Shown here piece by piece: positions 1 through 9,337 of a DNA stretch of 64,000 nt. The stretch comes from a virus (Duplodnaviria > Caudoviricetes). The translations under genes and the position numbers were made by a program. The notes below the pieces were generated by a model. It was not told the origin of the DNA, did no database searches, and was given only the letters and a program-made list of their open reading frames with translations. Within the stretch, counting starts at the first letter, position 1. Each line of letters begins with the position of its first letter. The stretch lies in the IMG/VR virus record IMGVR_UViG_2773857716_000001, positions 28,559 to 92,558 of that record; one strand, 5' to 3'.

Positions 1-341
1 CGGAGGTGGGCGGCGTAGGCGGGGGAGGTGGGCTGGACGGTGAGGCAGCCGGTGGCGTCGAGGGAGACGGGCTGGACCTTGCCGACGAGCTCGGGGCACA
101 GGGTGTGCCATTGGTCGACGATGTTGCCGCCGGCCATGCCGGTCTTCCAGTCCTGCTCGGCCTCGATGCGCTTGATGACGTTGCCGAGCCCGACGGGGTC
201 GCGGCCGTCGCCTGGTCGCGCACGCACGGTCTTGCTCTTGCGCTTGGTGGGGTCGTTGCCGGGGATGGCCCAGCTGCGGTTTTTGTAGGCGGCGAGGGCT
301 TCGCGGCAGATGTCTTTGCCGGACGGCTGGGGCTCAGTCAT
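1..341 (-). CDS. dciA: DciA (DUF721) family protein, 3' end outside window
   Basis: Manual translation from ATG at 341 (overlaps the upstream stop): MTEPQPSGKDICREALAAYK...DGRDPVGLGNVIKRIEAEQDW...GNIVDQW...LTVQPTSPAYAAHLR, matching the actinobacterial DUF721 pattern. Confidence 0.75.
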   Translation of the reverse strand, partial: MTEPQPSGKDICREALAAYKNRSWAIPGNDPTKRKSKTVRARPGDGRDPVGLGNVIKRIEAEQDWKTGMAGGNIVDQWHTLCPELVGKVQPVSLDATGCLTVQPTSPAYAAHL

Positions 342-1039
342 CGGGTCACCTCTCGGACGGGAATGCCGGCGGCGCGGGCGAGCTTCATGCAGTTGCGGGT
401 GCCGTAGGACCGGCCGAGGGGAAATCCGAGACAGAGGTACGCTCCGCGGCGCACGAGTTCGGCGTTCCGGCGGGGACCGGCCGAGGGGCAGAAGTCATCC
501 AGTTTGCCGGGGTGAGCGGTGTCGCCAGGCTTCTTTCGGCGGCGGTGCCCAGGGCCGGGCGGACAGTTGGGAGCACAGTGATCCCAGTCGGCTTCCAGGC
601 GCTCGGAGACGATGCCGTACGCCTCATGGGTCCGTGCCCAGCGATGAACGATGGGATCAGCTCCGTCGGGGCAAGCCCCCTCCACGAAGGCGACGCGCAC
701 GCCGTGGCCATAGATCTGCACCGCGTCGTGCCAGGAGTCCAGGAGCGCGTCCTCGATGAGCTGGGTGTCCCGGTGTTCGCGGGAGCCAGTGGTCAGGATG
801 CGCACGGTGCGGAGGGTGAGTGTCACCGACCGGATGATCGGCGCTGGCAGCGTGGCGTTGAGTCGTTCGATCAGGTTGGGACCGGCCAGACGCAAGAGGC
901 TGTGGGCCGCGGGGTTGTCGCAGCGCACGGTCAGCTTCTGCGTCTCTTCGTCGTAACCGACCGGTGCGATGTTGCTGGTCGTCACCACCTCTTTCCACGC
1001 CTCTCGCAATTCGGAGGCGAGGTTGATCTCGCGGCTCAT
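338..1039 (-). CDS. DciA/DUF721 domain fused to a SLOG (YspA/DUF2493-like) domain
   Basis: N-term PVGYDEETQKLTVRCDNPAAHSLLRLAGPNLIERLN (DUF721 core); C-term RILTTGSR...EGACPDGAD...AGPRRNAELV...GTRNCMKLARAAGIPV (SLOG motifs). Confidence 0.75.
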   Translation of the reverse strand: MSREINLASELREAWKEVVTTSNIAPVGYDEETQKLTVRCDNPAAHSLLRLAGPNLIERLNATLPAPIIRSVTLTLRTVRILTTGSREHRDTQLIEDALLDSWHDAVQIYGHGVRVAFVEGACPDGADPIVHRWARTHEAYGIVSERLEADWDHCAPNCPPGPGHRRRKKPGDTAHPGKLDDFCPSAGPRRNAELVRRGAYLCLGFPLGRSYGTRNCMKLARAAGIPVREVTR

Positions 1040-2517
1040 GCGTAGACCTCCTGGTCGGCGAGGTAGCGGTTGACGGCGGCGTTGGTGTAAACGCGGCGGG
1101 CGTCGGCCTCACCCATCCAAGAGATGGCGATTCCGATGATGGCCGGGTCCTTGGCGGCCGCGGCGCGCTGATCGATGACCTCGGCGCGGGACAGGGATGC
1201 CGGGTCGAAGGTTGTGGTTGCGGCGGTGTACTCGGTGCAGCCCTCCTCCGCGACCGGGGCCTGCTGGACGCGGGTGAAGGCTTCGGCAACCAGGCGCTGG
1301 ACGTGGGCGCTGGACGGGCCGGGTCCGAACGTCTCGTACTGCGTGCGGTCGTGCTCGCTTCGGGCGGCCTGCCGGGAGTCACGCCACGCCTGGACGCACT
1401 CCTGCCGGGCCTGGGGGGTGCGGAGGATCCGGGTGGCGCCCTTGAGGCGGCGGGCGAGGACTCCGGACGGGCGGCGGATGCCCTGGTCGTCACCGATGGC
1501 GAACTGGGACAGGTAAGCGGCCACCTCGGTGACGGACCAGCCGGCGTCCGCGACTTCGCGGGCTACCCAGGCGATACGGGCGGGGCTGGCGCCGCCGAGC
1601 CACGGGACCTGGGCGACGAGCTCACGGCCGAGCTGATGGCGACGGCCGACGCGGTTGAGGGCGCGACGGGCCCGCTGCTTGGGAATCTTCGGGGTGGGGC
1701 AATCGCTGGTCCCGCTGGCGAGCTTGCTCTCAGGGGGATAGGTAGTAGTTCCCGCAGATGTCGTCGTAGAGGTACCACCCTGCATTGGGGTGCAACGGGC
1801 CCTGCGCTGAGACGGCTTCCGGGAGCGGGTGCGGTGGACCTTCCGGGCGGCCTTCTTCGCGAGCTTCCCGATGGTGCTGCGGGACTCCTCGGCGATGCCG
1901 ACGGGACGCCGTTGCACCCCTTCGCCGATGATGCGGATGCCGAGGGCCTCGTCGAACGCGACCGGGATGACCCGCTCGTACACGGATGCCTGCGCACCGA
2001 CGCCGGAGACGCGGGTGCCCTTGGAGCGGTAGGCGAGGAGTCCGGCTTCGCGGAGCATGTCGAAGTGGTACTGCACGGCTCGCTCGGACAGCCCCAGCTT
2101 GCGCGCGAGGTAGGCGATCCCGGGGCGGCACTCGGTGAGCGCGGCGATCTCCTGGCAGATGCGGATGGTGGTCTGGTTCATGCCGCGAGGGCCGTGGGTG
2201 CGGCTGGGCTTGTAGAGGCCGGAGCTGTGGACCCAGTGGACGGACTGCATCCAGGAGTGGCCGCAGGTGGCGACACGTCCGGTGGTGGTGCCGATCCATT
2301 GGCCGTTGGGGGCGACACGGAGTGCCGTCTGAGCGCTGTGGTTGCGCTGCCCGGGGAGGGAAATCCGGGACGAATCGCCCAAGTCGGGGGCGTGAAGCTG
2401 ACAAGCGGTGTCGACGTCGTGCAAGATAGGTCCCGTCGTCAGGCACGCCTGATGGCATGCGAAAGGCCTTCGGGTCGGTCGTTGCTTCTCGGCAGAAGCG
2501 GATTGCTCGGAGCGCAA
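1036..2517 (-). CDS. HTH protein, putative replication initiator (true start probably downstream of 2517)
   Basis: ECRPGIAYLARKLGLSERAVQYHFDMLREAGLL winged-HTH typical of initiators; stop overlaps the start of the DciA-SLOG gene. Confidence 0.6.
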   Translation of the reverse strand: MRSEQSASAEKQRPTRRPFACHQACLTTGPILHDVDTACQLHAPDLGDSSRISLPGQRNHSAQTALRVAPNGQWIGTTTGRVATCGHSWMQSVHWVHSSGLYKPSRTHGPRGMNQTTIRICQEIAALTECRPGIAYLARKLGLSERAVQYHFDMLREAGLLAYRSKGTRVSGVGAQASVYERVIPVAFDEALGIRIIGEGVQRRPVGIAEESRSTIGKLAKKAARKVHRTRSRKPSQRRARCTPMQGGTSTTTSAGTTTYPPESKLASGTSDCPTPKIPKQRARRALNRVGRRHQLGRELVAQVPWLGGASPARIAWVAREVADAGWSVTEVAAYLSQFAIGDDQGIRRPSGVLARRLKGATRILRTPQARQECVQAWRDSRQAARSEHDRTQYETFGPGPSSAHVQRLVAEAFTRVQQAPVAEEGCTEYTAATTTFDPASLSRAEVIDQRAAAAKDPAIIGIAISWMGEADARRVYTNAAVNRYLADQEVYA

Positions 2518-2546
2518 CCGGGGTGGTACTCGGGGCGGTCCGAACG

Positions 2547-2612
2547 CTGGAGGGCTGGTAACCCGTCCAGCAGCAGAGGGGCCGTAGTCCGGCCGGTGCT
2601 GGTAACACCGGT
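2547..2612 (-). promoter_or_regulatory. Two hairpins in the rep leader, each containing GTTACCAGC (minus strand) at the loop
   Basis: ctggagggctggtaacccgtccag (2547-2570) and gccggtgctggtaacaccggt (2592-2612). Confidence 0.55.
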
Positions 2613-2659
2613 TGGCGGAGGCGGCCCGGGGCGGTCGAGGAATCTCCCGCCGGATATGG

Positions 2660-3064
2660 CTACGTCATCTGATCCCCTTCAGTGGGTGGGGTCTGTGCCC
2701 GTTGCTCGACAATGTCGAAGCGAACCGGGCTCGGCAGTTCGTGGGCTCCCGTCCGTCTCGTGTCGAAGTAGAGGCAGTCGAGCAGGACGGCCAGCCTCGC
2801 CTCCAGCTGGTCCGGTCGGTCGCCCAGCCGCGTGCCGGACACTTCCGTGCGGAGGCGAACCGTGCGCGAGGTCAGATCGAGTGAACTCCCGGGCGCGAAG
2901 AACGTATCGACGCTCCTCTGGATCCTCTCGGGAGTCAGGTGCCATTCCTGCTGCTGGACAGATACGCGCGGCTTCGGGCGTGGGCAGGAGACTGCGATGT
3001 TCCAGGTGCGGGCGCTCATCGCTCGCCCTCCACCCAGAACTTGCGGCACGCGGGGCGCTGGCAT
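2660..3064 (-). CDS. hypothetical protein (likely start near 3019, MSART)
   Basis: ORF within a minus-strand run, ATGA overlap with the upstream gene. Confidence 0.45.
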   Translation of the reverse strand: MPAPRVPQVLGGGRAMSARTWNIAVSCPRPKPRVSVQQQEWHLTPERIQRSVDTFFAPGSSLDLTSRTVRLRTEVSGTRLGDRPDQLEARLAVLLDCLYFDTRRTGAHELPSPVRFDIVEQRAQTPPTEGDQMT

Positions 3065-3390
3065 CGACCGGAGGCGTCAACCTTTGAGGCCGGGACCAGA
3101 TCCGCCAGATCGCTTTCCTCGCCGAGTTCCACGCTTCCGTTGCATGCGGCTACGGAAGCCCCGTACACGTATCCGGATCCGGTGACGGCGATGTGCACGA
3201 CGCCCCGGGAGTTCCAGTTGTTGCGGCCTTCGCCGTTGCGAGTGCCGGCGAGGACTGACCCGCGGTACGTCAGTACCCGGCGAGGCTCTTGGGCTTTCGC
3301 GGGGTGGTAGTCGTCGGGTCGGTTGGTCCGATGGTGCAGGACCTCGGCCTGGTAGTCGTGGACCTCAATGCGGCCCACCGCGGCGCTCAT
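3016..3390 (-). CDS. hypothetical protein with C-terminal CxxxxC
   Basis: ORF with overlapping start/stop on both sides. Confidence 0.55.
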   Translation of the reverse strand: MSAAVGRIEVHDYQAEVLHHRTNRPDDYHPAKAQEPRRVLTYRGSVLAGTRNGEGRNNWNSRGVVHIAVTGSGYVYGASVAACNGSVELGEESDLADLVPASKVDASGRCQRPACRKFWVEGER

Positions 3391-3531
3391 CGTGCGCTGT
3401 GGGTAGTGGTGACAGGGTCTCCGCTCTGCGTCGCCGGTGTGATCTTCACGGCGGTGGCTGGAGTCCCACTGTCTGATAGCCCGGGTGTCCGGGTACTCTG
3501 AGCCATATCGCTGGCCTTTCTACGTTGTGGC

Positions 3532-3608
3532 TGGCGGTGGCCGGGTTGACTGCCCGGCAACGGCCCCGCCACGATCCCGGTTACCAGCCGGGGGAGCGGG
3601 GCCGCTCC
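3532..3608 (-). ncRNA. candidate structured small RNA (C4/CI-like antisense RNA)
   Basis: Minus strand: cggccccgc...gcggggccg stem enclosing the hairpin cccgGCTGGTAACcggg, then a gccggg-cagtcaa-cccggc hairpin; the loop is complementary to the rep leader loops. Confidence 0.45.
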
Positions 3609-3770
3609 ATTTGTAGTTTGAGTGGCCGTCAGAAGCTGAATGCTCGTCTGGCGCAGGCCCCAGCCTAGCGGTTTACCTCGCCACCCCTCTACCTCCCTTG
3701 CATACGTGTCGATAACTGTTGATTCATCAATACGACCAGCTCATCGGGTCATCGGCGCCCTCCCGTCCGC

Positions 3771-3797
3771 GTCCTATAGTTTTGGGAAGTAAATAAC
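3771..3797 (+). repeat. 27-bp AT-rich site, exact inverted copy of 18028-18054
   Basis: gtcctatagttttgggaagtaaataac; reverse complement present at 18028-18054. Confidence 0.9.
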
Positions 3798-3833
3798 GGG
3801 AGTCAGCACAGGTCAGGCGCCTGCGGCTTTGAA

Positions 3834-4244
3834 CTACCCGACATCGGCCAGCACGGCGAACTTGGTTGTTGCGGTGTGTGGTTGGGGGATCGGCAGCGGG
3901 TGGACTTGTGCGGTTCTGTCGGGGCCGTCGTGCTGGACGGTGGCCTGCCGGTGTCGGGTGCGGGCTGCTGTGGCGGCGGCGGTGCAGCGGGGGCCGCGGC
4001 AGCCGTGGTTGTTGTAGCCGCCCGCGGTGCCGTGCGGGATGCGGTTGTCGCGGCCTGCGGCTTTTGCCGCGGCCAGGCGTTGGGCGAAGCCGGGGTTGCG
4101 GGCTGCCAGTTGTGTGGGGGTCCTGCGGCTGATGCCGAGCTTGTCGGCGGCGTCGCCGATGCGGACGCCCGAGGCGACGAGGCGCAGGAACTCGACCTGG
4201 GCGGCCTGGTCGAAGGTGACGGGGCGGCCGCGGCCGGCGGTCAC
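3834..4244 (-). CDS. HTH DNA-binding protein with HGT..GY...CRC-like motif
   Basis: IGDAADKLGISRRT HTH; PHGTAGGYNNHGCRGPRC. Confidence 0.6.
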   Translation of the reverse strand: MTAGRGRPVTFDQAAQVEFLRLVASGVRIGDAADKLGISRRTPTQLAARNPGFAQRLAAAKAAGRDNRIPHGTAGGYNNHGCRGPRCTAAATAARTRHRQATVQHDGPDRTAQVHPLPIPQPHTATTKFAVLADVG

Positions 4245-4639
4245 TCGTGGTCTCCGCGCGCGATGTCCTGCTCAGTGTTGGCGCGGTGCCGGCCGTGGGA
4301 TGCGGTGACGGCGACCCGGCGGGCCATGGCCTGGTATCCGGCGTCGACGAGGGCCGTGCGCAGCCGGTCCAGGGCCTGCGGCTCCCAGGTGGGTGCGGAG
4401 ACGATGCGGCCGGCGCGGTAGCCGACTCTCAGGCCGTGCTCGTATATCGCCGTCACCACCTCCTCCGGCACGTCCGGCCACAGCACGGTGGGGAGCTTCG
4501 TGGGCTGACCGAGGACGTCGAGGGTGGCGGCGGCGAGGACGCCGGTGAGCATGTCGGCGGAGGTGACGGCTCGCTGCTCGTGGGAGTGGTCGGCGGCTGC
4601 GACGTCCAGGGCGGCGGGGAGTTCGGGGGTGGTGGTCAT
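4241..4639 (-). CDS. hypothetical protein
   Basis: Start MTTTPELP overlaps the upstream stop. Confidence 0.55.
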   Translation of the reverse strand: MTTTPELPAALDVAAADHSHEQRAVTSADMLTGVLAAATLDVLGQPTKLPTVLWPDVPEEVVTAIYEHGLRVGYRAGRIVSAPTWEPQALDRLRTALVDAGYQAMARRVAVTASHGRHRANTEQDIARGDHE

Positions 4640-5490
4640 GCGGCGGGCTCCAGGACGGTGGTGATGGGGAGGGTGAGGGGCTGGACGGTGCGGACGATCC
4701 GCAGCCGCGGCCGGCGGGCGCCGCTGGTAGTGGGGGCGGCGGGTGTGCGGCGGCCGCGGGCGAGGTGCGGGAACCCGGGCAGGACCAGCTGCACGGGCCG
4801 GGCCGGCGCGATCCGCCGCTGCCGGGAGCCGTCCGTGTTCGGGGCCGCGGCTATGGGCCAGCGCCCGTCCGGGGCGATCCGAACTCCCGCGGGGAGGACG
4901 CCGAGTTCCCGGGCCCGCTCCAGGAGCTGCTGCCTGCTCGCGGTCTCCTTGTCCAGGCCGAGGAGGCCGCACAGGAGGCTGCGGTGCCAGTTGCTGGTGC
5001 GGACGTCCATGCCCGCCCGATACGCGACCAGTTCCTCGTCTGTCTCACGCGCCAACGACTTCAGGAGGGCCTGCTTCTGGGCGGTGCGTGCCTCGTCGAG
5101 CCGGGCGTCGTCCGCTGCAGGTGCCGCGGGTACGCCGGCCTCGCGGCGGCGGGCGATCAGCGCCTTGTGGCGGTCCAGGCTCCGCATCCCGCCGAGGACG
5201 CCCTCGGGTTCGGCGAGCTTGCCATCGGAGGTCTCGGTGAGGCCGTAGGTGCGGCACACGGCCAGGACCGGGCAGGTGCCGCACACGGCCTCGGCCGCCT
5301 CCAGCCGCAGGTTGCGCACCGACGGGCCCTCGCCGCCCTCCTCCGTGTACGGCCCCCATGCGTCCAGGCTCAGGTCCGGGTTGCCCTGGGCGCGGCCGGG
5401 CTGGTCCGGGTCGGGCGCGCACCCGCGGTAGCGCCAGTGGCGGTGGTCTTCGAGCTGTTGGCGTGCCGTCTCCGGCGTGAGGGTGGTCAT
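4636..5490 (-). CDS. WhiB-like (Wbl) Fe-S regulator with C-terminal extension
   Basis: RGC...AVCGTCPVLAVC...EGVLGGM: four Cys plus a G[V]xGG turn. Confidence 0.7.
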   Translation of the reverse strand: MTTLTPETARQQLEDHRHWRYRGCAPDPDQPGRAQGNPDLSLDAWGPYTEEGGEGPSVRNLRLEAAEAVCGTCPVLAVCRTYGLTETSDGKLAEPEGVLGGMRSLDRHKALIARRREAGVPAAPAADDARLDEARTAQKQALLKSLARETDEELVAYRAGMDVRTSNWHRSLLCGLLGLDKETASRQQLLERARELGVLPAGVRIAPDGRWPIAAAPNTDGSRQRRIAPARPVQLVLPGFPHLARGRRTPAAPTTSGARRPRLRIVRTVQPLTLPITTVLEPAA

Positions 5491-5765
5491 GAGGGGTCCC
5501 CGCTTCCGTGCTGCGTGCTGTGCTGGGTGAGGGCGTGGGTGACGATGGCGGTCGCGGCCGCGAGGACGTCCTGCTCGACGCGGTATTGGCGGGCGCCGGC
5601 GACGAGCCGGGCGACGTTCGCGGAGTGGTCCCGGGCTACGGCGGCGTCGGTGATGCGGCGCTCCGCCTGGACGGCGGTCAGGGCGCGGCGCATCCGCCAC
5701 CAGGCCACAGTGAGGCCGGCGGTGGAGAGGAGCGCCACGATCAACGCGGTGAGCATGGCGCTCAC
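5487..5765 (-). CDS. small membrane-anchored protein
   Basis: N-terminal hydrophobic helix; coupled ORF. Confidence 0.55.
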   Translation of the reverse strand: MSAMLTALIVALLSTAGLTVAWWRMRRALTAVQAERRITDAAVARDHSANVARLVAGARQYRVEQDVLAAATAIVTHALTQHSTQHGSGDPS

Positions 5766-5768
5766 CTC

Positions 5769-6011
5769 CTATTCGGTGGTGGGGTCAGTGCGGGCTGCGT
5801 AGTCGGCGACGATCTGCTCGGCCGCGCGGACGACGAGGAGCTCGGAGCGGACGCGTTCAAGCTCTTGCCGGACATACGAAGCGCGCTGGCCCCGGATGAG
5901 GCGCAGCGCGCGGTGGTAGATGAAGCGGGCCCCGGCCCAGACCGCCGCCGGTAGACCGGCGGCAGCCAGGCGCAGGGCCACGGCCTCAGAAGAGGGTGGC
6001 CGTTGGGTCAT
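5769..6011 (-). CDS. hypothetical protein
   Basis: ORF with GAGG RBS upstream. Confidence 0.5.
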   Translation of the reverse strand: MTQRPPSSEAVALRLAAAGLPAAVWAGARFIYHRALRLIRGQRASYVRQELERVRSELLVVRAAEQIVADYAARTDPTTE

Positions 6012-6052
6012 GACTAGACACCTCGGGAATGAGGGAGTGCTGTGGATGTGAA

Positions 6053-6086
6053 GCGGGGCCGCACCGGACTGCCGGTGCGGCCCCGC
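6053..6086. terminator. perfect GC-rich hairpin, probable terminator
   Basis: gcggggccgcaccgg-actg-ccggtgcggccccgc downstream of the PAPS-reductase-like gene. Confidence 0.65.
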
Positions 6087-6113
6087 GGGACGGTTGGGGT
6101 TAGGGGTGGCGGG

Positions 6114-7577
6114 TCACGCCGCAGACCGGGACTGGACGGTCAGCAGTCCGCCCTGCTGGCCGCCGGAGGGGCAGCCGAACGGGGAGCAGCCCTGCACCTC
6201 GTCCTCCTCTTCCTCCAGCTCCAGCTCCCCTTCGAAGGCCAGGTCGAGGAGGTCGCCCTGTTCGAACTCTCGGCGCTGTATGCGGTCGATGGGGGCCTGG
6301 TCCAGCGGCAGAGCCGAGATGTGTAGGAAGCGTTCGCCGTCCAGGCCTGGGCCGGTACGGAAGCGGTGGTCGAAGTCGACGGCGCGCTGCCACTCGGCGG
6401 GATTGGTGTCCCGCATGCGGCGCCAGGAGGCGTTGGAGCGGTACGGGCAGAAGTAGCAAGCGGACTTCGGGGTGGAGGCCCAGCCGCGGGAGGCGAGGTA
6501 TGCCCGGCACTGGGTGCGGGTCATGTTCAGTTCCAGCAGCGGGTGCCGGCTACGGCTGTAGCGGGAGTCCTTGATGTCGGAGGCTCGGTCGATTTCGTCG
6601 GTGGAGAACCCGACCCACTGCTCGACCCACTTTCCGGCCGGGGGCTGGCCGATGCGGCTGAGGCTTCCCAAGCCGCCGCAGACCGAGCACTCGCCGGTCT
6701 CGTCCTCACCGCGCTTGGCGCGCCAGGGAGCGACGCGCTGCCCGGCGCCGTCGCACTTGTTGCAGGGGCGCTCGGCGCCGGCCTTGGCGCCGAGGAGGAG
6801 GCGGACCTGCTCCATGATTCCGCGGATCTTGTATTTCTGGGTGCAGAAGCGTCGGATCATGCCCAGGTCGCGTTCCTGGACCATCTGCCAGGCCACCGGG
6901 ATCCGTCCGCTGGAGTTGCAGCTCGCGCACGGGGCCGGCATCACGTCGAGTCCCAGTCGCTTCATAGCTCGGGCCACGGTAGCTTCCGGGACCGGCGCAT
7001 AGCCATCCTCCGGACCCATCGTGGGGTTCTCGGCGGCGGCCTGCTCCAACTCGGCCAGCGTCACCCGGCCGTTCTCGCGACGCCTGGCAGCCATAGGAAG
7101 CTCATCGAAGAGCCCCCTCCATGCCTTCTGGTCGGCCAGGACCCGGAAGCGAGCCCACCCGCAGCCTTCGCCGGCGCCGTCCAAGCCGTCATCGGATGTC
7201 GTGGTCTGGCCGCACAGCTTCCACGCGGCGACCCGCTTGACCGTGCGCCACTTCGAAGCGGTGAATGCCGGGATGGACGACATCTTGTTCGGGTCGAACA
7301 AGTCGTTGTCGAGGTTGCCGTACTGGACGCGGATGATGGGGATGCCGGCCGGGCGGGCAATCTCCCGCTCCAGGCGGTCGAGGTGGTCGTACACCTCCTG
7401 CGGCTCTGCGCCGGTGTCAGCGAAGATCGCGTAGTCCAGCTTGGGGAGCACGCCCTCTGCGGACAGCATCAGTAGCGTCGTGGACTGCACCCCTGCCCCT
7501 AGGGACAGGACCCGCAGTGTTGGGGTGTCGGTGACGTCGCCCTCAATGACTCGCTTGGCGACGGTGGAGATGGTCAT
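6114..7577 (-). CDS. PAPS-reductase / adenine nucleotide alpha-hydrolase family protein with Zn-finger insertions
   Basis: VLSLGAGVQST (PP-loop variant), AIFADTGAE, CTQKYKI, VGFSTDE, KSACYFCPY; start MTIST after GGAAAGGA RBS. Confidence 0.75.
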   Translation of the reverse strand: MTISTVAKRVIEGDVTDTPTLRVLSLGAGVQSTTLLMLSAEGVLPKLDYAIFADTGAEPQEVYDHLDRLEREIARPAGIPIIRVQYGNLDNDLFDPNKMSSIPAFTASKWRTVKRVAAWKLCGQTTTSDDGLDGAGEGCGWARFRVLADQKAWRGLFDELPMAARRRENGRVTLAELEQAAAENPTMGPEDGYAPVPEATVARAMKRLGLDVMPAPCASCNSSGRIPVAWQMVQERDLGMIRRFCTQKYKIRGIMEQVRLLLGAKAGAERPCNKCDGAGQRVAPWRAKRGEDETGECSVCGGLGSLSRIGQPPAGKWVEQWVGFSTDEIDRASDIKDSRYSRSRHPLLELNMTRTQCRAYLASRGWASTPKSACYFCPYRSNASWRRMRDTNPAEWQRAVDFDHRFRTGPGLDGERFLHISALPLDQAPIDRIQRREFEQGDLLDLAFEGELELEEEEDEVQGCSPFGCPSGGQQGGLLTVQSRSAA

Positions 7578-7711
7578 GCGGAGGTCCTTTCCGTGAGCAG
7601 GGTCTGTGGGCCGCGTGGGTGGCGCGGCAACGGGTGAGGCCGGGAGGGCCGGAGCGACGACCGCTTCGGCCGGCACTTCCCGCCCCTCCACATCCAGCTG
7701 CGCACCTGTCA

Positions 7712-9337
7712 TCAGGCGGCGACCGCCAACTTCGCGGCGCCGCCCTGCTCCTCGTAACGAGACAGTTCCTCGCCGCTGATGGCCTCGACCAGCGCGCACA
7801 GCAGCACCTCGGCGGCGTTCGGCGTGACGGCGTTCCCGTACTGGCGCACCCGCTCCCGCTTCGAGCCGAGGACCGTGTAGTCGTCAGCAAAGGACATCGC
7901 GCGGCCGATCTCGTGCGGCTCAAGCATGCGGAACCGCACATCTTCGATGGCCGGCTGGCCGTTCACCAGGGCGTACCGGTCCCGAGTCGTCAGGGCACCC
8001 ACAGGGGCGGTGACGGGCCGGGCGGCGCCGTTGCCGTAGTACGGGACCAGGAGGTGCTCGGTGATGCTGTCCGGAGTGACCAGGCCGTGATGGTTGCCAG
8101 AGGCGCACACGGTGGCGAGGGCCTCGGAGACGGAGCGGGCGACTGATCCGCCGCCGCGCAACTCTGCGACGAACGGCAACCAGGCCAATCCCGTTTCGTT
8201 GCGGGTGGTCTGCGCTCGCAAAGGCAGGGCCGCCGAGGTCGCAGACTTCCCGTCTCGTCCTTCGACGGGCACCATCAGCGGCGGCACCGCGAGCGCGTCG
8301 TTCTCGCGGGTGGTGCGGGTCGGCATGGGATCCAGCACGCTTGACGCGTCGTTGCGCCATGTCCCGCCCGCGGGAACCATCATCGGCACCGGGGTGGCGA
8401 ACCGCTCCAGTCCGGCCTTGATCCGGGCGAGGGTCTTGTCCGCCAGGGGCCGGGCCCGGTCGCCGATGCGCTGGCCGGGGATCGACCAGTCGATCGCAGC
8501 CAGCGCGGGCAGCGCATCCGGCTCCACCACGCTGTTGCGGCACGTGGTGTGAGGGCAGCGGTAGACGTACTGCTGGCGGTAACGACCCATGTCGACGCCA
8601 GGGCGCTTCCACGACTGCACGGCCCGCACCCACTCGTCGCACGTCTCGCACCAGGCCCGCGGCCGCAGCCACTTGTCCCAGTCAGGCGTGCGGCCCAGCG
8701 ACTCGTGCCAGTAGCCGACGTACAGCCGGTCACGGGACTGCGGGGCCCGGTGAACGGTGCGGGGGTCGGCGTGCATGCTGTTCAGGGCGATGATGTGGGT
8801 GCGGTAGCCCATCTTGTGGATCTCGCCGATCCACCGGTCCCACTGGTCCCACGACCGCACGTCCACGACGTTCTCGACGATGCCGGCCTTGACCAGGCCG
8901 CCGCGTTCTATGACACCCCGCAGGTACAGCGGCACCTCCTCCATCAGCGCCCGGGACTCTTCCTCCAGCGTCGGGCCGCCCTCGTCGTCGGCCTCGAACT
9001 TGCTCTGCTCGATCGCGGCGTACAGGTCGAGGAGATCGCCCTGCATCGCGTTGACGAAGTCCCGCTTCTTGCCCTTGGCCACGCTCCAGTTGGTGCACTC
9101 CGGAGACGCCCAGAAGATGTCGGTGACCGGCCACGCCCACACCGGCGCCTTGCGGATGTCGCCGCGGTAGTGGTCGGCGTCCGGGAAGTTCGCGGCGTGC
9201 GACTCGATCGCCCGCTCCCAGTGGTTCGCCGCTCGGGCCACCCTCAGGCCAGGCACGGCGTGCGCGCCCTGGGAGGAGCCGCCGGCCCCGCAGAACCAGT
9301 CCATGACGGTCAAAGCGTCGTTGTCGTTGCGGTACAT
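7712..9337 (-). CDS. DNA (cytosine-5) methyltransferase
   Basis: Motif I DWFCGAGG, IV WASPEC, VI ENV, VIII QSRDR, X QYGNAV. Confidence 0.9.
   Translation of the reverse strand: MYRNDNDALTVMDWFCGAGGSSQGAHAVPGLRVARAANHWERAIESHAANFPDADHYRGDIRKAPVWAWPVTDIFWASPECTNWSVAKGKKRDFVNAMQGDLLDLYAAIEQSKFEADDEGGPTLEEESRALMEEVPLYLRGVIERGGLVKAGIVENVVDVRSWDQWDRWIGEIHKMGYRTHIIALNSMHADPRTVHRAPQSRDRLYVGYWHESLGRTPDWDKWLRPRAWCETCDEWVRAVQSWKRPGVDMGRYRQQYVYRCPHTTCRNSVVEPDALPALAAIDWSIPGQRIGDRARPLADKTLARIKAGLERFATPVPMMVPAGGTWRNDASSVLDPMPTRTTRENDALAVPPLMVPVEGRDGKSATSAALPLRAQTTRNETGLAWLPFVAELRGGGSVARSVSEALATVCASGNHHGLVTPDSITEHLLVPYYGNGAARPVTAPVGALTTRDRYALVNGQPAIEDVRFRMLEPHEIGRAMSFADDYTVLGSKRERVRQYGNAVTPNAAEVLLCALVEAISGEELSRYEEQGGAAKLAVAA

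What the first reader, a model, noticed from the sequence alone, without database searches (positions are those of the whole stretch)
2547..3608. Candidate C4/CI-like antisense RNA that could pair loop-to-loop with the replication-gene leader
Seen: the 9-mer GCTGGTAAC occurs three times here, always at the apex of a hairpin. On the transcribed minus strand, the upstream element (3532-3608) folds into a nested GC-rich stem presenting GCUGGUAAC. About 1 kb downstream, just before the initiator-like gene, two different hairpins (2592-2612 and 2547-2570) present the exact complement GUUACCAGC. The stems differ while the 9-mer is conserved. Known: P4 CI RNA and P1/P7 C4 RNA are processed from an operon transcript and block downstream expression by pairing to short targets. 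Inference: this is an RNA switch controlling rep-dciA expression (immunity, copy number or plasmid-versus-lytic state). I am not aware of one described in Streptomyces phage-plasmids.
Basis: partly seen in the sequence, partly recalled or inferred. Interest (0 to 1): 0.85.

Follow-up and report, generated by a model that had tools for sequence, protein, structure and literature searches.

The report
Hairpin-tip words in phage-plasmid replication leader
The three matching hairpins are real parts of two conserved control modules in front of a Streptomyces phage-plasmid's replication gene, but relatives do not keep the two loops complementary, so the proposed P1/P4-style antisense switch is probably not how the family works.

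Summary
GCTGGTAAC occurs three times, always at a hairpin tip, and its 7-nt core occurs nowhere else in the 92.6-kb element.

The element is a pZL12-like Streptomyces phage-plasmid. The upstream hairpin (U) is a covariation-supported nested stem in a conserved operon leader. The two downstream hairpins (R1, R2) lie in a conserved ~240-nt cassette before rep.

In 51 unique cassettes the hairpin tips carry a short word. It is usually repeated 2-4 times within an element and differs between elements (TTGGCG 27, CGCCAA 9, others). The word is uncoupled from Rep and sometimes flips to its reverse complement.

The U loop is CTGGTAA in 19 of 31 unique relatives. U and R are perfectly complementary in 3 of 31 (window, L014, L035) and wobble-complementary in one more.

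My preferred reading (about 0.4) is that the tips are RNA kissing-loop specificity determinants of a self-contained rep-leader control cassette. That cassette probably works with a countertranscript and sets copy number and incompatibility. On this reading the U-R match comes from word sharing between hairpins.

No transcript was mapped. One soil RNA contig ends exactly at U's base.

The parts
3562..3603 (-). U: nested hairpin. Outer stem 3603-3596 / 3569-3562, inner stem 3592-3588 / 3580-3576, loop CUGGUAA 3587-3581.
   Evidence: Sequence. Covariation on 11 relatives: 97.2% of cells paired, 3 pairs with compensatory changes, slid controls at most 49%. Further stem variants carry the same loop, for example CCTGGTG/CACCAGG and CCCGGTG/CACTGGG.
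3609..3622 (-). A-rich tract just 5' of U. On the + strand it is a U-rich tail after the hairpin, which is terminator-like. A discrete RNA end lies at 3608/3609.
   Evidence: The A fraction is 0.50 in the 14 nt 5' of the outer stem in 31 unique relatives, against a background of 0.17. The + strand terminator-like site at 3593-3608 with tail ATTTGTAGTT is the only one found in 2300-4300, with 1.1 expected by chance. An RNA contig runs into adapter letters at 3609.
3540..3558 (-). U2: second leader hairpin GCCGGG-CAGUCAA-CCCGGC. Its loop varies among relatives.
   Evidence: Loops seen: window CAGTCAA, L001 GGCGAA, L035 CGCCAA, L014 ACTTCCCA, L015 AAAGTCCA.
3641..3667 (-). Conserved TAGGCT (3667-3662, -10-like) followed by the conserved GCGCCAGACGA motif. 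Candidate promoter and 5' end of the operon transcript.
   Evidence: Invariant or near-invariant columns in an alignment of 15 relatives. The promoter role is inferred. The consensus scan found no sigma-70-type site in 2300-4300.
3387..3506 (-). Conserved 39-codon ORF (or RNA) that ends the U module. Relatives diverge immediately after its stop codon.
   Evidence: Alignment. No Pfam or PHROG match. Strong nucleotide-level conservation.
2660..2680 (-). Start of the rep-leader cassette: SD-like GAAGGGG, then ATG-ACG-TAG. This is also the shared ...GDQ(M/V/L)T* tail of non-homologous upstream ORFs.
   Evidence: The base before TG-ACG-TAG is G in 33, A in 12 and T in 2 of 47 leaders, and never C.
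2630..2651 (-). H1: first cassette hairpin, GGCGG-GAG-AUUC-CUC-GA-CCGCC.
   Evidence: Other classes carry an added apical hairpin here that bears the element's word.
2579..2627 (-). R1 domain: outer stem GGGCCG/CGGCCC around CCGGUG-UUACCAG-CACCGG (2611-2593).
   Evidence: It is homologous to H2 (GGUG-word-CACC) of the other classes.
2546..2571 (-). R2: GCUGGA(C)GGG-UUACCAG-CCCUCCAGC.
   Evidence: In L015 the outer stem is kept but the tip is replaced by CAGGU-UUUGCCG-ACCUG.
2395..2427 (-). rep start (TTG 2424-2422) and the conserved CTTGTCAGCTT (2405-2395) in codons 7-10. On the + strand these read CTGACA (2398-2403), an 18-nt spacer, then CAAGAT (2422-2427): a candidate countertranscript promoter.
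   Evidence: TTGTCAG is present in 50 of 51 independently ascertained leaders. The codons used there are TGT and CTT, which make up 7 of 226 Cys and 37 of 1259 Leu codons in the rest of rep. The start aligns with annotated GTG starts. The promoter role is inferred.
1036..2424 (-). rep: HTH initiator-like gene, the regulated gene.
   Evidence: Weak Pfam HTH matches. PHROG replication-initiator families at E of 1.5e-5 to 2.8e-4. Synteny with dciA, parA and parB in annotated plasmids.

Best explanation
The three hairpins belong to two conserved regulatory modules of the maintenance operon (leader, small ORF, variable cargo genes, rep, dciA, parAB) of pZL12-like Streptomyces phage-plasmids. U sits in the operon's 5' leader module. 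R1 and R2 are two hairpins of a self-contained, highly structured cassette that runs from the stop codon of the upstream gene into about the first ten codons of rep.

Shown:
- Stems covary.
- Each cassette displays one 6-7-nt word on 2-4 hairpin tips.
- Words differ between otherwise near-identical cassettes.
- Words are uncoupled from the Rep protein.
- Words can flip to their reverse complement in place.
- Words are shared between U, U2 and R positions across the family.

Inferred:
- The words are RNA loop-loop (kissing) specificity determinants.
- The partner is a countertranscript made from the same cassette. The candidate promoter on the opposite strand overlaps rep codons 1-10.
- Binding of this countertranscript to the leader lowers rep translation or promotes termination. 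This would set copy number and define incompatibility groups.
- The exact complementarity of U to R1/R2 in this lineage is most likely a by-product of tip or word exchange between hairpins. It might add cross-talk between the operon leader and the rep leader. It is not the conserved mechanism.
For: (1) Hairpins are selected as structures. In 58 distinct stem-word hairpins of the cassettes, 340 of 355 pairs are Watson-Crick, with many different stem sequences. U shows 3 compensatory pairs.

(2) Words repeat within an element. In 41 of 51 unique leaders the same loop word occurs 2-4 times: TTGGCG 27, CGCCAA 9, TTGACG 2, TTTGCCG 1, TTGCCG 1, TGCCAC 1. The three TTACCAG leaders fall among the 10 'none' only because R2 has a bulged stem.

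(3) Words behave like alleles. L004 and L007 leaders are 90.9% identical, but all four tips differ, TTGGCG against TTGACG.

(4) Words are uncoupled from Rep.
- L007, L021 and L030 have rep bodies 90-92% identical (nt) but leaders 61-62% identical, with words TTGACG, TGCCA-type and CGCCAA.
- L004/L007 and L018/L022 show the reverse pattern.
- The HTH region is the most conserved part of the 13-sequence Rep alignment.
- pZL12 Rep is only 28% identical but carries a CGCCAA-type leader.

(5) The cassette behaves as an autonomous unit. Window, L014 and L035 share an almost identical cassette core although rep is 78-79% identical (nt). L015, with rep 83% identical, has a different core at 52%.

(6) Flips occur. 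TTGGCG and CGCCAA occupy homologous hairpins. The U loops CGGCAAA (L018, L038) and TTTGCCG (L021, L007) sit in the same stem. A flip is neutral only if both strands matter.

(7) No trans partner exists. Complete genomes of CGCCAA and TTGACG elements hold no hairpin with the complementary loop. The TTGGCG genome holds only 4 weak ones.

(8) There is a nucleotide-level constraint in rep codons 7-10. TTGTCAG occurs in 50 of 51 leaders and uses rare TGT and CTT codons. On the opposite strand it reads as a -35-like CTGACA, 18 nt from CACTAT or CAAGAT.
Against: - No antisense transcript was seen, and no RNA data exist for this organism.
- The proposed antisense promoter scores only 8 of 12 against the sigma-70 consensus, and the consensus scan found none.
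- No clear terminator for such an RNA lies inside the cassette.
- A cis-encoded antisense RNA does not require all tips of one cassette to carry the same word, nor U and R positions to share a word pool. Both features would be predicted by a single common reader, whether a protein or one trans RNA.
- The strand test is indecisive. Non-Watson-Crick pairs in R stems are 10 A.C against 5 G.U on the sense strand, and alifold energies are -46.0 sense against -52.4 antisense.
- The MFE folds close the UUACCAG loops to 3 nt.
- TTACCAG recurs in an unrelated metagenomic cassette (L100, one of four tips), and L012's U is complementary to its R. Both fit some selection for U-R pairing.
Confidence: 0.4

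Rival explanations
1. The U hairpin RNA, at the 5' end of the operon transcript and perhaps processed, pairs loop-to-loop with R1 and R2. It does so in the same mRNA or in trans and lowers rep-dciA expression, as P1 C4 or P4 CI do.
For: - The loops are exactly complementary over 7 nt (9 nt with R1, 11 nt with R2) and occur nowhere else in 92.6 kb.
- Duplex energy is -7.4 kcal/mol for 7 nt and -13.4 for 9 nt.
- The U loop is predicted to be open.
- The geometry matches: leader hairpin, about 1 kb, then two targets before rep.
- An RNA contig from a relative ends at U's base with adapter attached.
- All 3 elements with R = TTACCAG have U = CTGGTAA.
- L012's U (CGCUAA) pairs with its R (UUGGCG) through one G.U pair.
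- L100 carries one TTACCAG tip.
Against: - U and R are complementary in only 3 of 31 unique relatives. Those three share one cassette and so count as one event.
- U stays CTGGTAA while R changes in 16 of 19 relatives.
- When U changes, R does not follow: 0 of 12 are perfectly complementary.
- L015, a DNA relative in run X13 and L001 all keep U = CTGGTAA, but L015 has TTTGCCG, X13 an altered, TTGCCG-like R1 loop (my reconstruction from the base changes listed), and L001 TTGGCG.
- CTGGTAA is the majority U allele (19 of 31), so any cassette with TTACCAG would match it without selection.
- There is no Rfam C4 match.
- Cofolding gains only -1.4 and -1.5 kcal/mol over the separate folds.
Confidence: 0.15
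2. The hairpin tips are binding sites for a sequence-specific protein that reads the loop word. It could bind RNA, as a translational repressor or antiterminator in the manner of lambda N with boxB. It could instead bind extruded or single-stranded DNA at an origin or priming site.
For: - The same word sits on 2-4 tips of one cassette with different stems.
- In the TTGGCG class the sites are spaced a regular 37-38 nt apart.
- Words are shared between U, U2 and R positions.
- Flips are harmless for a DNA-level reader.
- A helix followed by a U-run lies upstream of rep in many cassettes. An antiterminator could act there.
Against:
- Cassettes move between elements independently of flanking genes. 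That would separate a site from a reader encoded elsewhere.
- The genes between U and R are non-homologous among elements.
- Exact reverse-complement words (TTGGCG/CGCCAA, CGGCAAA/TTTGCCG, CTGGTAA/TTACCAG) are not expected for an RNA-binding protein.
Confidence: 0.2
3. This concerns U only and is compatible with the other readings. U is mainly an intrinsic terminator for transcription on the window's + strand, antisense to the operon. It could be the 3' hairpin of a short antisense RNA that covers the operon's first ribosome-binding site.
For: - U is a GC-rich nested stem. On the + strand it is followed by a U-rich tail in all 31 unique relatives, although the tail sequence is not conserved. 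The A fraction 5' of the stem on the gene strand is 0.50 against 0.17. L076 and L094 read CCTTTTTTGT.
- The only terminator-like site found in 2300-4300 is + strand 3593-3608.
- All 4 non-paired cells in U's outer stem are C.A or A.C on the gene strand, which is G.U on the + strand.
- The RNA contig ends at 3609.
Against: - A plain terminator does not explain a loop invariant in 19 of 31 relatives or allele-like loop swaps in identical stems, such as L094 against L062.
- The extended outer stem also holds G.U pairs on the gene strand.
- The adapter attached to the contig is, from memory, the read-1 type. In the common dUTP protocol that would make 3609 the 5' end of a gene-strand RNA.
- The conserved TAGGCT upstream argues that the gene strand is transcribed through U.
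Confidence: 0.35

Closest known systems
P1/P7 C4 RNA and P4 CI RNA (immunity RNAs processed from an operon leader)
   Same: In this element a leader hairpin loop is exactly complementary to two short sites upstream of a downstream gene of the same operon. As in P4, that gene is a replication gene. A discrete RNA end lies at the hairpin base in a relative.
   Different: There is no sequence or structure match to any Rfam family, C4 included. Loop and target do not covary in relatives, with complementarity in only 3 of 31. The targets are hairpin loops rather than sites over the ribosome-binding site. Processing and trans action were not tested.
Countertranscript (antisense RNA) copy-number control of plasmid rep genes (R1 CopA/CopT, ColE1 RNA I/II, pT181 and pIP501 attenuation)
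   Same: The rep leader is structured, with several hairpins of 6-7-nt loops. Most words start with YU, like the U-turn loops of such systems (a recalled motif). Loop changes between close relatives look like incompatibility alleles. The unit is self-contained and independent of Rep. A helix plus U-run lies upstream of rep in many cassettes.
   Different: No antisense transcript or proven promoter was found. All tips of one cassette carry the same word, and words flip or move between hairpins. I do not know of either feature in those systems. The host is an actinobacterial phage-plasmid. My five full-text searches found no description of this: pZL12 with Streptomyces and replication; pCQ4; phage-plasmid, Streptomyces and DciA; Streptomyces, plasmid, antisense RNA, copy number and rep; pZL12 alone.
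Iteron or inverted-repeat origins of Streptomyces theta plasmids (pFP1, pFP11, pWTY27, SCP2)
   Same: Repeats and inverted repeats lie in a non-coding stretch beside rep. In pWTY27, RepA binds a long inverted repeat that may fold back (passages of PMC3583192 read).
   Different: Here the repeated words do not follow Rep or its HTH. The arms covary instead of being conserved.
Lambda N / boxB (nut) type hairpin readers
   Same: Identical short hairpin loops occur at several places in a transcript, and the loops differ between related phages.
   Different: No candidate reader protein covaries. Reverse-complement words are not expected for a protein reader. This comparison is recalled only.

Membership tests
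C4/CI-type immunity RNA | Homology to the Rfam C4 model | tested here: not met
   cmscan of 1-8000 at E up to 10 gave four chance-level hits, none at 2540-3620 and none to C4.
C4/CI-type immunity RNA | RNA loop complementary to two or more sites upstream of the controlled gene in the same operon | tested here: met
   CUGGUAA at 3587-3581 against UUACCAG at 2605-2599 and 2561-2555.
C4/CI-type immunity RNA | Loop and targets change together in relatives | tested here: not met
   Perfectly complementary in 3 of 31 unique relatives (one lineage) and wobble-complementary in 1 more. U is unchanged while R differs in 16 of 19.
C4/CI-type immunity RNA | Discrete small RNA processed from the leader | tested here: inconclusive
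   One metatranscriptome contig from a relative (183 nt, depth 31) ends at 3608/3609 with adapter. Its strand and other end are unknown, and it reaches 3447, beyond the ORF start.
C4/CI-type immunity RNA | Acts in trans to block expression or confer immunity | not testable with these tools
   Needs genetics.
Countertranscript rep control | Conserved hairpins with covarying stems in the rep leader | tested here: met
   There are 51 unique cassettes. 340 of 355 pairs are Watson-Crick across 58 distinct stems.
Countertranscript rep control | Promoter on the opposite strand reading back through the leader | tested here: inconclusive
   Candidate CTGACA-18 nt-CAAGAT/CACTAT overlaps rep codons 1-10. 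It is supported only by nucleotide-level conservation with rare codons. The consensus scan was negative.
Countertranscript rep control | Antisense transcript present | not testable with these tools
   No RNA run exists for this organism. Contigs carry no strand information.
Countertranscript rep control | Loop sequence defines specificity independently of Rep | tested here: met
   Words are uncoupled from the Rep tree and from rep identity. Their function as an incompatibility determinant is inferred.
Iteron / Rep-binding origin | Repeats covary with the initiator's DNA-binding domain | tested here: not met
Intrinsic terminator (U, + strand) | GC-rich stem followed by a U-rich tract | tested here: met
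Intrinsic terminator (U, + strand) | RNA 3' ends map to the tract | tested here: inconclusive
   There is an end at 3609, but its strand is unknown.

The most novel reading that the evidence does not exclude
The hairpin-tip words form a family-wide address code. Words seen on leader hairpins (U, U2) of some elements are the exact complements of words on rep-leader tips of other elements: CTGGTAA/TTACCAG, CGGCAAA/TTTGCCG, CGCCAA or CGCTAA/TTGGCG. A leader RNA of one phage-plasmid could therefore dock on the rep leader of a competing element and shut down its replication. That would be RNA-based superinfection immunity or incompatibility in trans. Tip swapping and flipping would be the escape route. 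In the window's lineage the same contact would be turned on self, as autoregulation.
Probability: 0.1. Interest if true: 0.85.

Novelty: new variant of a known kind. Interest (0 to 1): 0.55.

Why it matters
pZL12-like phage-plasmids are common in Streptomyces. 127 plasmid records matched this region, and many more hits came from soil metagenomes. In the papers I could search, I found no description of how their replication is controlled or why they are compatible or incompatible with one another.

A small, exchangeable cassette whose hairpin tips act as specificity alleles would explain how closely related elements coexist. It would also give a handle for building compatible actinobacterial vectors.

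The finding is also a caution. A striking loop-loop match within one genome did not survive comparison with relatives.

Tried and rejected
- Rfam search of 1-8000 at E up to 10: nothing relevant.
- Trans partner elsewhere. I searched each locus and three complete relatives for hairpins with the complementary word. None was found in the CGCCAA and TTGACG genomes. The TTGGCG genome had four weak, chance-like ones.
- Strand of the structure. G.U against A.C counts and alifold on both strands were both indecisive.
- MAFFT-based fold_alignment of 22 U sequences mixed two architectures and gave a meaningless 5-pair structure. I replaced it with a gap-free subgroup of 11 of the 22.
- Co-residence test. 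I asked whether two such elements in one genome carry different words. Each of the five genomes searched holds a single rep homologue, so the test could not be made.
- U2 loops and the conserved GCGCCAG motif as alternative partners of R: only short, non-covarying matches by eye, so I dropped this.
- Resemblance of CUGGUAA to a tRNA anticodon loop, and of GGCGGTAG (H1, opposite strand) to an ops-like site: considered from memory, not tested, not claimed.
- Literature. The pZL12 paper (J Bacteriol 2010) is not held, so its mapping of the minimal replicon could not be read, and it may bear on the origin question. For PMC3583192, PMC4487206 and PMC7157519 I read passages only. For the searches I saw the listings only. 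Supplements were not opened.
- Read laying. Parts of the stretch without cover in X22, X2 and X5 say nothing. Contigs carry no strand.
Full report
**Observation.** The 9-mer GCTGGTAAC occurs at 2554, 2598 (+) and 3580 (-). In 100 shuffles, 0 reached three copies. The 7-nt core occurs nowhere else in the 92,558-nt record of which the window is part. All genes in this region read on the minus strand. On that strand the upstream copy is the open 7-nt loop CUGGUAA of a nested GC-rich hairpin (U, 3603-3562). The two downstream copies are the loops UUACCAG of two different hairpins: R1 at 2611-2593 and R2 at 2571-2546.

Three caveats apply. Predicted folds can close the R loops to three bases. R2 has a bulged stem. 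Among 109 hairpins with 7-nt loops in the window, one unrelated complementary pair also exists.

[quoted passage not shown] The gene order is leader, small ORF, variable genes, rep, dciA, parA, parB. By alignment with annotated relatives, rep starts at TTG 2424. The rep leader therefore runs from 2660 to 2424.

I collected relatives from genomes, viral contigs, metagenomes and plasmid records. This gave 51 unique rep leaders and 31 unique U hairpins.

**The rep leader is a conserved cassette.**
- It starts with an SD-like box plus start-ACG-TAG. This is also the common tail of non-homologous upstream ORFs.
- A series of hairpins follows.
- It ends inside rep, at the nearly invariant TTGTCAGCTT in codons 7-10. 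That motif uses TGT and CTT codons, which are rare elsewhere in rep: 7 of 226 Cys and 37 of 1259 Leu codons.
- Stems differ between elements but stay paired, with 340 of 355 pairs Watson-Crick in 58 distinct hairpins.

**Tip words.** The tips carry a short word. In 41 of 51 leaders the same word sits on 2-4 tips: TTGGCG 27, CGCCAA 9, TTGACG 2, and one each of TTTGCCG, TTGCCG and TGCCAC. The three TTACCAG leaders (window, L014, L035) count among the 10 'none' only because of R2's bulge.

Words behave like alleles. L004 and L007 leaders are 91% identical, yet all four tips differ by the same base. CGCCAA is the reverse complement of TTGGCG at homologous hairpins.

**Rep does not read the words.** L007, L021 and L030 have rep bodies 90-92% identical but different leaders and words. 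L004/L007 and L018/L022 show the opposite pattern. The HTH is the most conserved part of Rep. pZL12's Rep is only 28% identical, yet it carries a CGCCAA-type leader.

The cassette core of window, L014 and L035 is almost identical although rep is 78-79% identical. L015, the closest Rep relative, has a different core and the word TTTGCCG. It retains the outer stem of R2, so the hairpin tip has been replaced.

**U.** The nested structure is supported by covariation: 97.2% of cells paired, three pairs with two-sided changes, slid controls at most 49%. Stems of quite different sequence carry the same loop.

The loop in the 31 unique relatives is:

| Loop | Count |
|---|---|
| CTGGTAA | 19 |
| TTGCGAA | 5 |
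| CGGCAAA | 4 |
| TTTGCCG | 2 |
| CGCTAA | 1 |

TTTGCCG is the flip of CGGCAAA in the same stem. L094 and L062 have identical stems but different loops.

U lies in a conserved module with a -10-like TAGGCT, a conserved GCGCCAGACGA motif, a second hairpin with a variable loop, and a conserved 39-codon ORF. The 14 nt before U are 50% A in all 31 relatives, against 17% background. On the other strand U therefore looks like an intrinsic terminator, and the scan flagged 3593-3608 (+).

**The decisive test.** If U paired with R as C4 or CI pair with their targets, loop and targets should change together. They do not.
- U and R are perfectly complementary in 3 of 31 relatives, all with the same cassette.
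- One more (L012) is complementary through a G.U pair.
- With U = CTGGTAA, R is something else in 16 of 19.
- With another U, R is never perfectly complementary (0 of 12).
- A DNA relative in a public run also keeps the U loop but has an altered R1 loop.
- No Rfam family matched.
- Complete genomes of two other word classes hold no complementary hairpin anywhere. A trans-encoded hairpin partner is therefore not the general rule.

**RNA evidence.** No RNA run exists for this organism. In a soil metatranscriptome, a 183-nt contig from a relative covers 3447-3609 at depth 31. At 3609 it continues into letters that I recognise from memory as Illumina adapter. A second contig (2620-2871) has depth 5.6. 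This shows a discrete RNA end at the base of U. Strand and function remain open.

**Interpretation.** These features are what one expects of RNA loop-loop specificity determinants in a rep-leader control unit that carries its own partner, a countertranscript:
- folded single strands;
- short loops;
- allele-like and flipping words;
- independence from Rep;
- autonomy of the cassette;
- absence of a trans partner.

The constrained TTGTCAG in rep reads on the other strand as CTGACA, 18 nt from CAAGAT or CACTAT. That is a possible promoter for such an RNA. This part is inference and I give it about 0.4.

It does not explain why all tips of a cassette share one word, or why words are shared among U, U2 and R. 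Both would fit a common reader, which I rate at 0.2. Because CTGGTAA is the majority U allele, any cassette with TTACCAG would match it without selection. On the other hand, TTACCAG recurs on one tip of an unrelated cassette (L100), and L012's U looks like an inverted copy of its own R tip.

**Verdict.** The anatomy of tip words is, as far as my searches show, undescribed. I rate it a new variant of antisense-type replication control, of moderate interest.

Noticed in passing
It faces outward at both ends of the early region and could equally be a shared promoter or operator. Its core ACTTCCCA is also the loop of the second leader hairpin in L014.
   Followed up: partly
window 2660-2680 and homologous places in 47 leaders: A conserved SD-like box plus start codon, ACG and TAG. 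The start is G/A/T-TG in 33, 12 and 2 of 47 leaders, never CTG. It could be a two-codon mini-ORF. The same letters also supply the C-terminal ...GDQ(V/M/L)T* of non-homologous upstream genes.
   Followed up: partly
window 3387-3506: A 39-codon ORF conserved at nucleotide level across 15 relatives, with no family match and no annotation in several plasmid records. It could be a leader peptide or part of an RNA.
   Followed up: partly
window 2395-2405: rep codons 7-10 (..CTTGTCAGCTT..) are nearly invariant in DNA and use rare TGT and CTT codons. This indicates an overlapping signal in the coding sequence.
   Followed up: yes
L094:1495-1553 against L062:136-194; L018 against L021 and L007: Hairpins with identical stems but different loops, or the same loop flipped. 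The tips are exchanged or inverted as units.
   Followed up: partly
L017 (pZL12) 3442-4824: pZL12's replication protein (pZL12.20c) is only 28% identical to this family's Rep, yet it shares the leader cassette and the first ~35 codons.
   Followed up: partly
leaders of L018, L004, L023 and others, about 45-60 nt before the rep start: A long-range helix closes two hairpins and is followed by a U-run. The arms covary: GCCCGACTTC/GAAGCGGGC, GACTCTCA/TGAGAGTC, GCCCGCC/GGCGGGC. It may be an attenuator. It is less clear in the window's own cassette.
   Followed up: no
window 2490-2509 and 3627-3646: A 20-nt direct repeat (17 of 20) links the operon leader's 5' motif and the 3' part of the rep cassette. 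It is weaker in L014 and may be chance.
   Followed up: no
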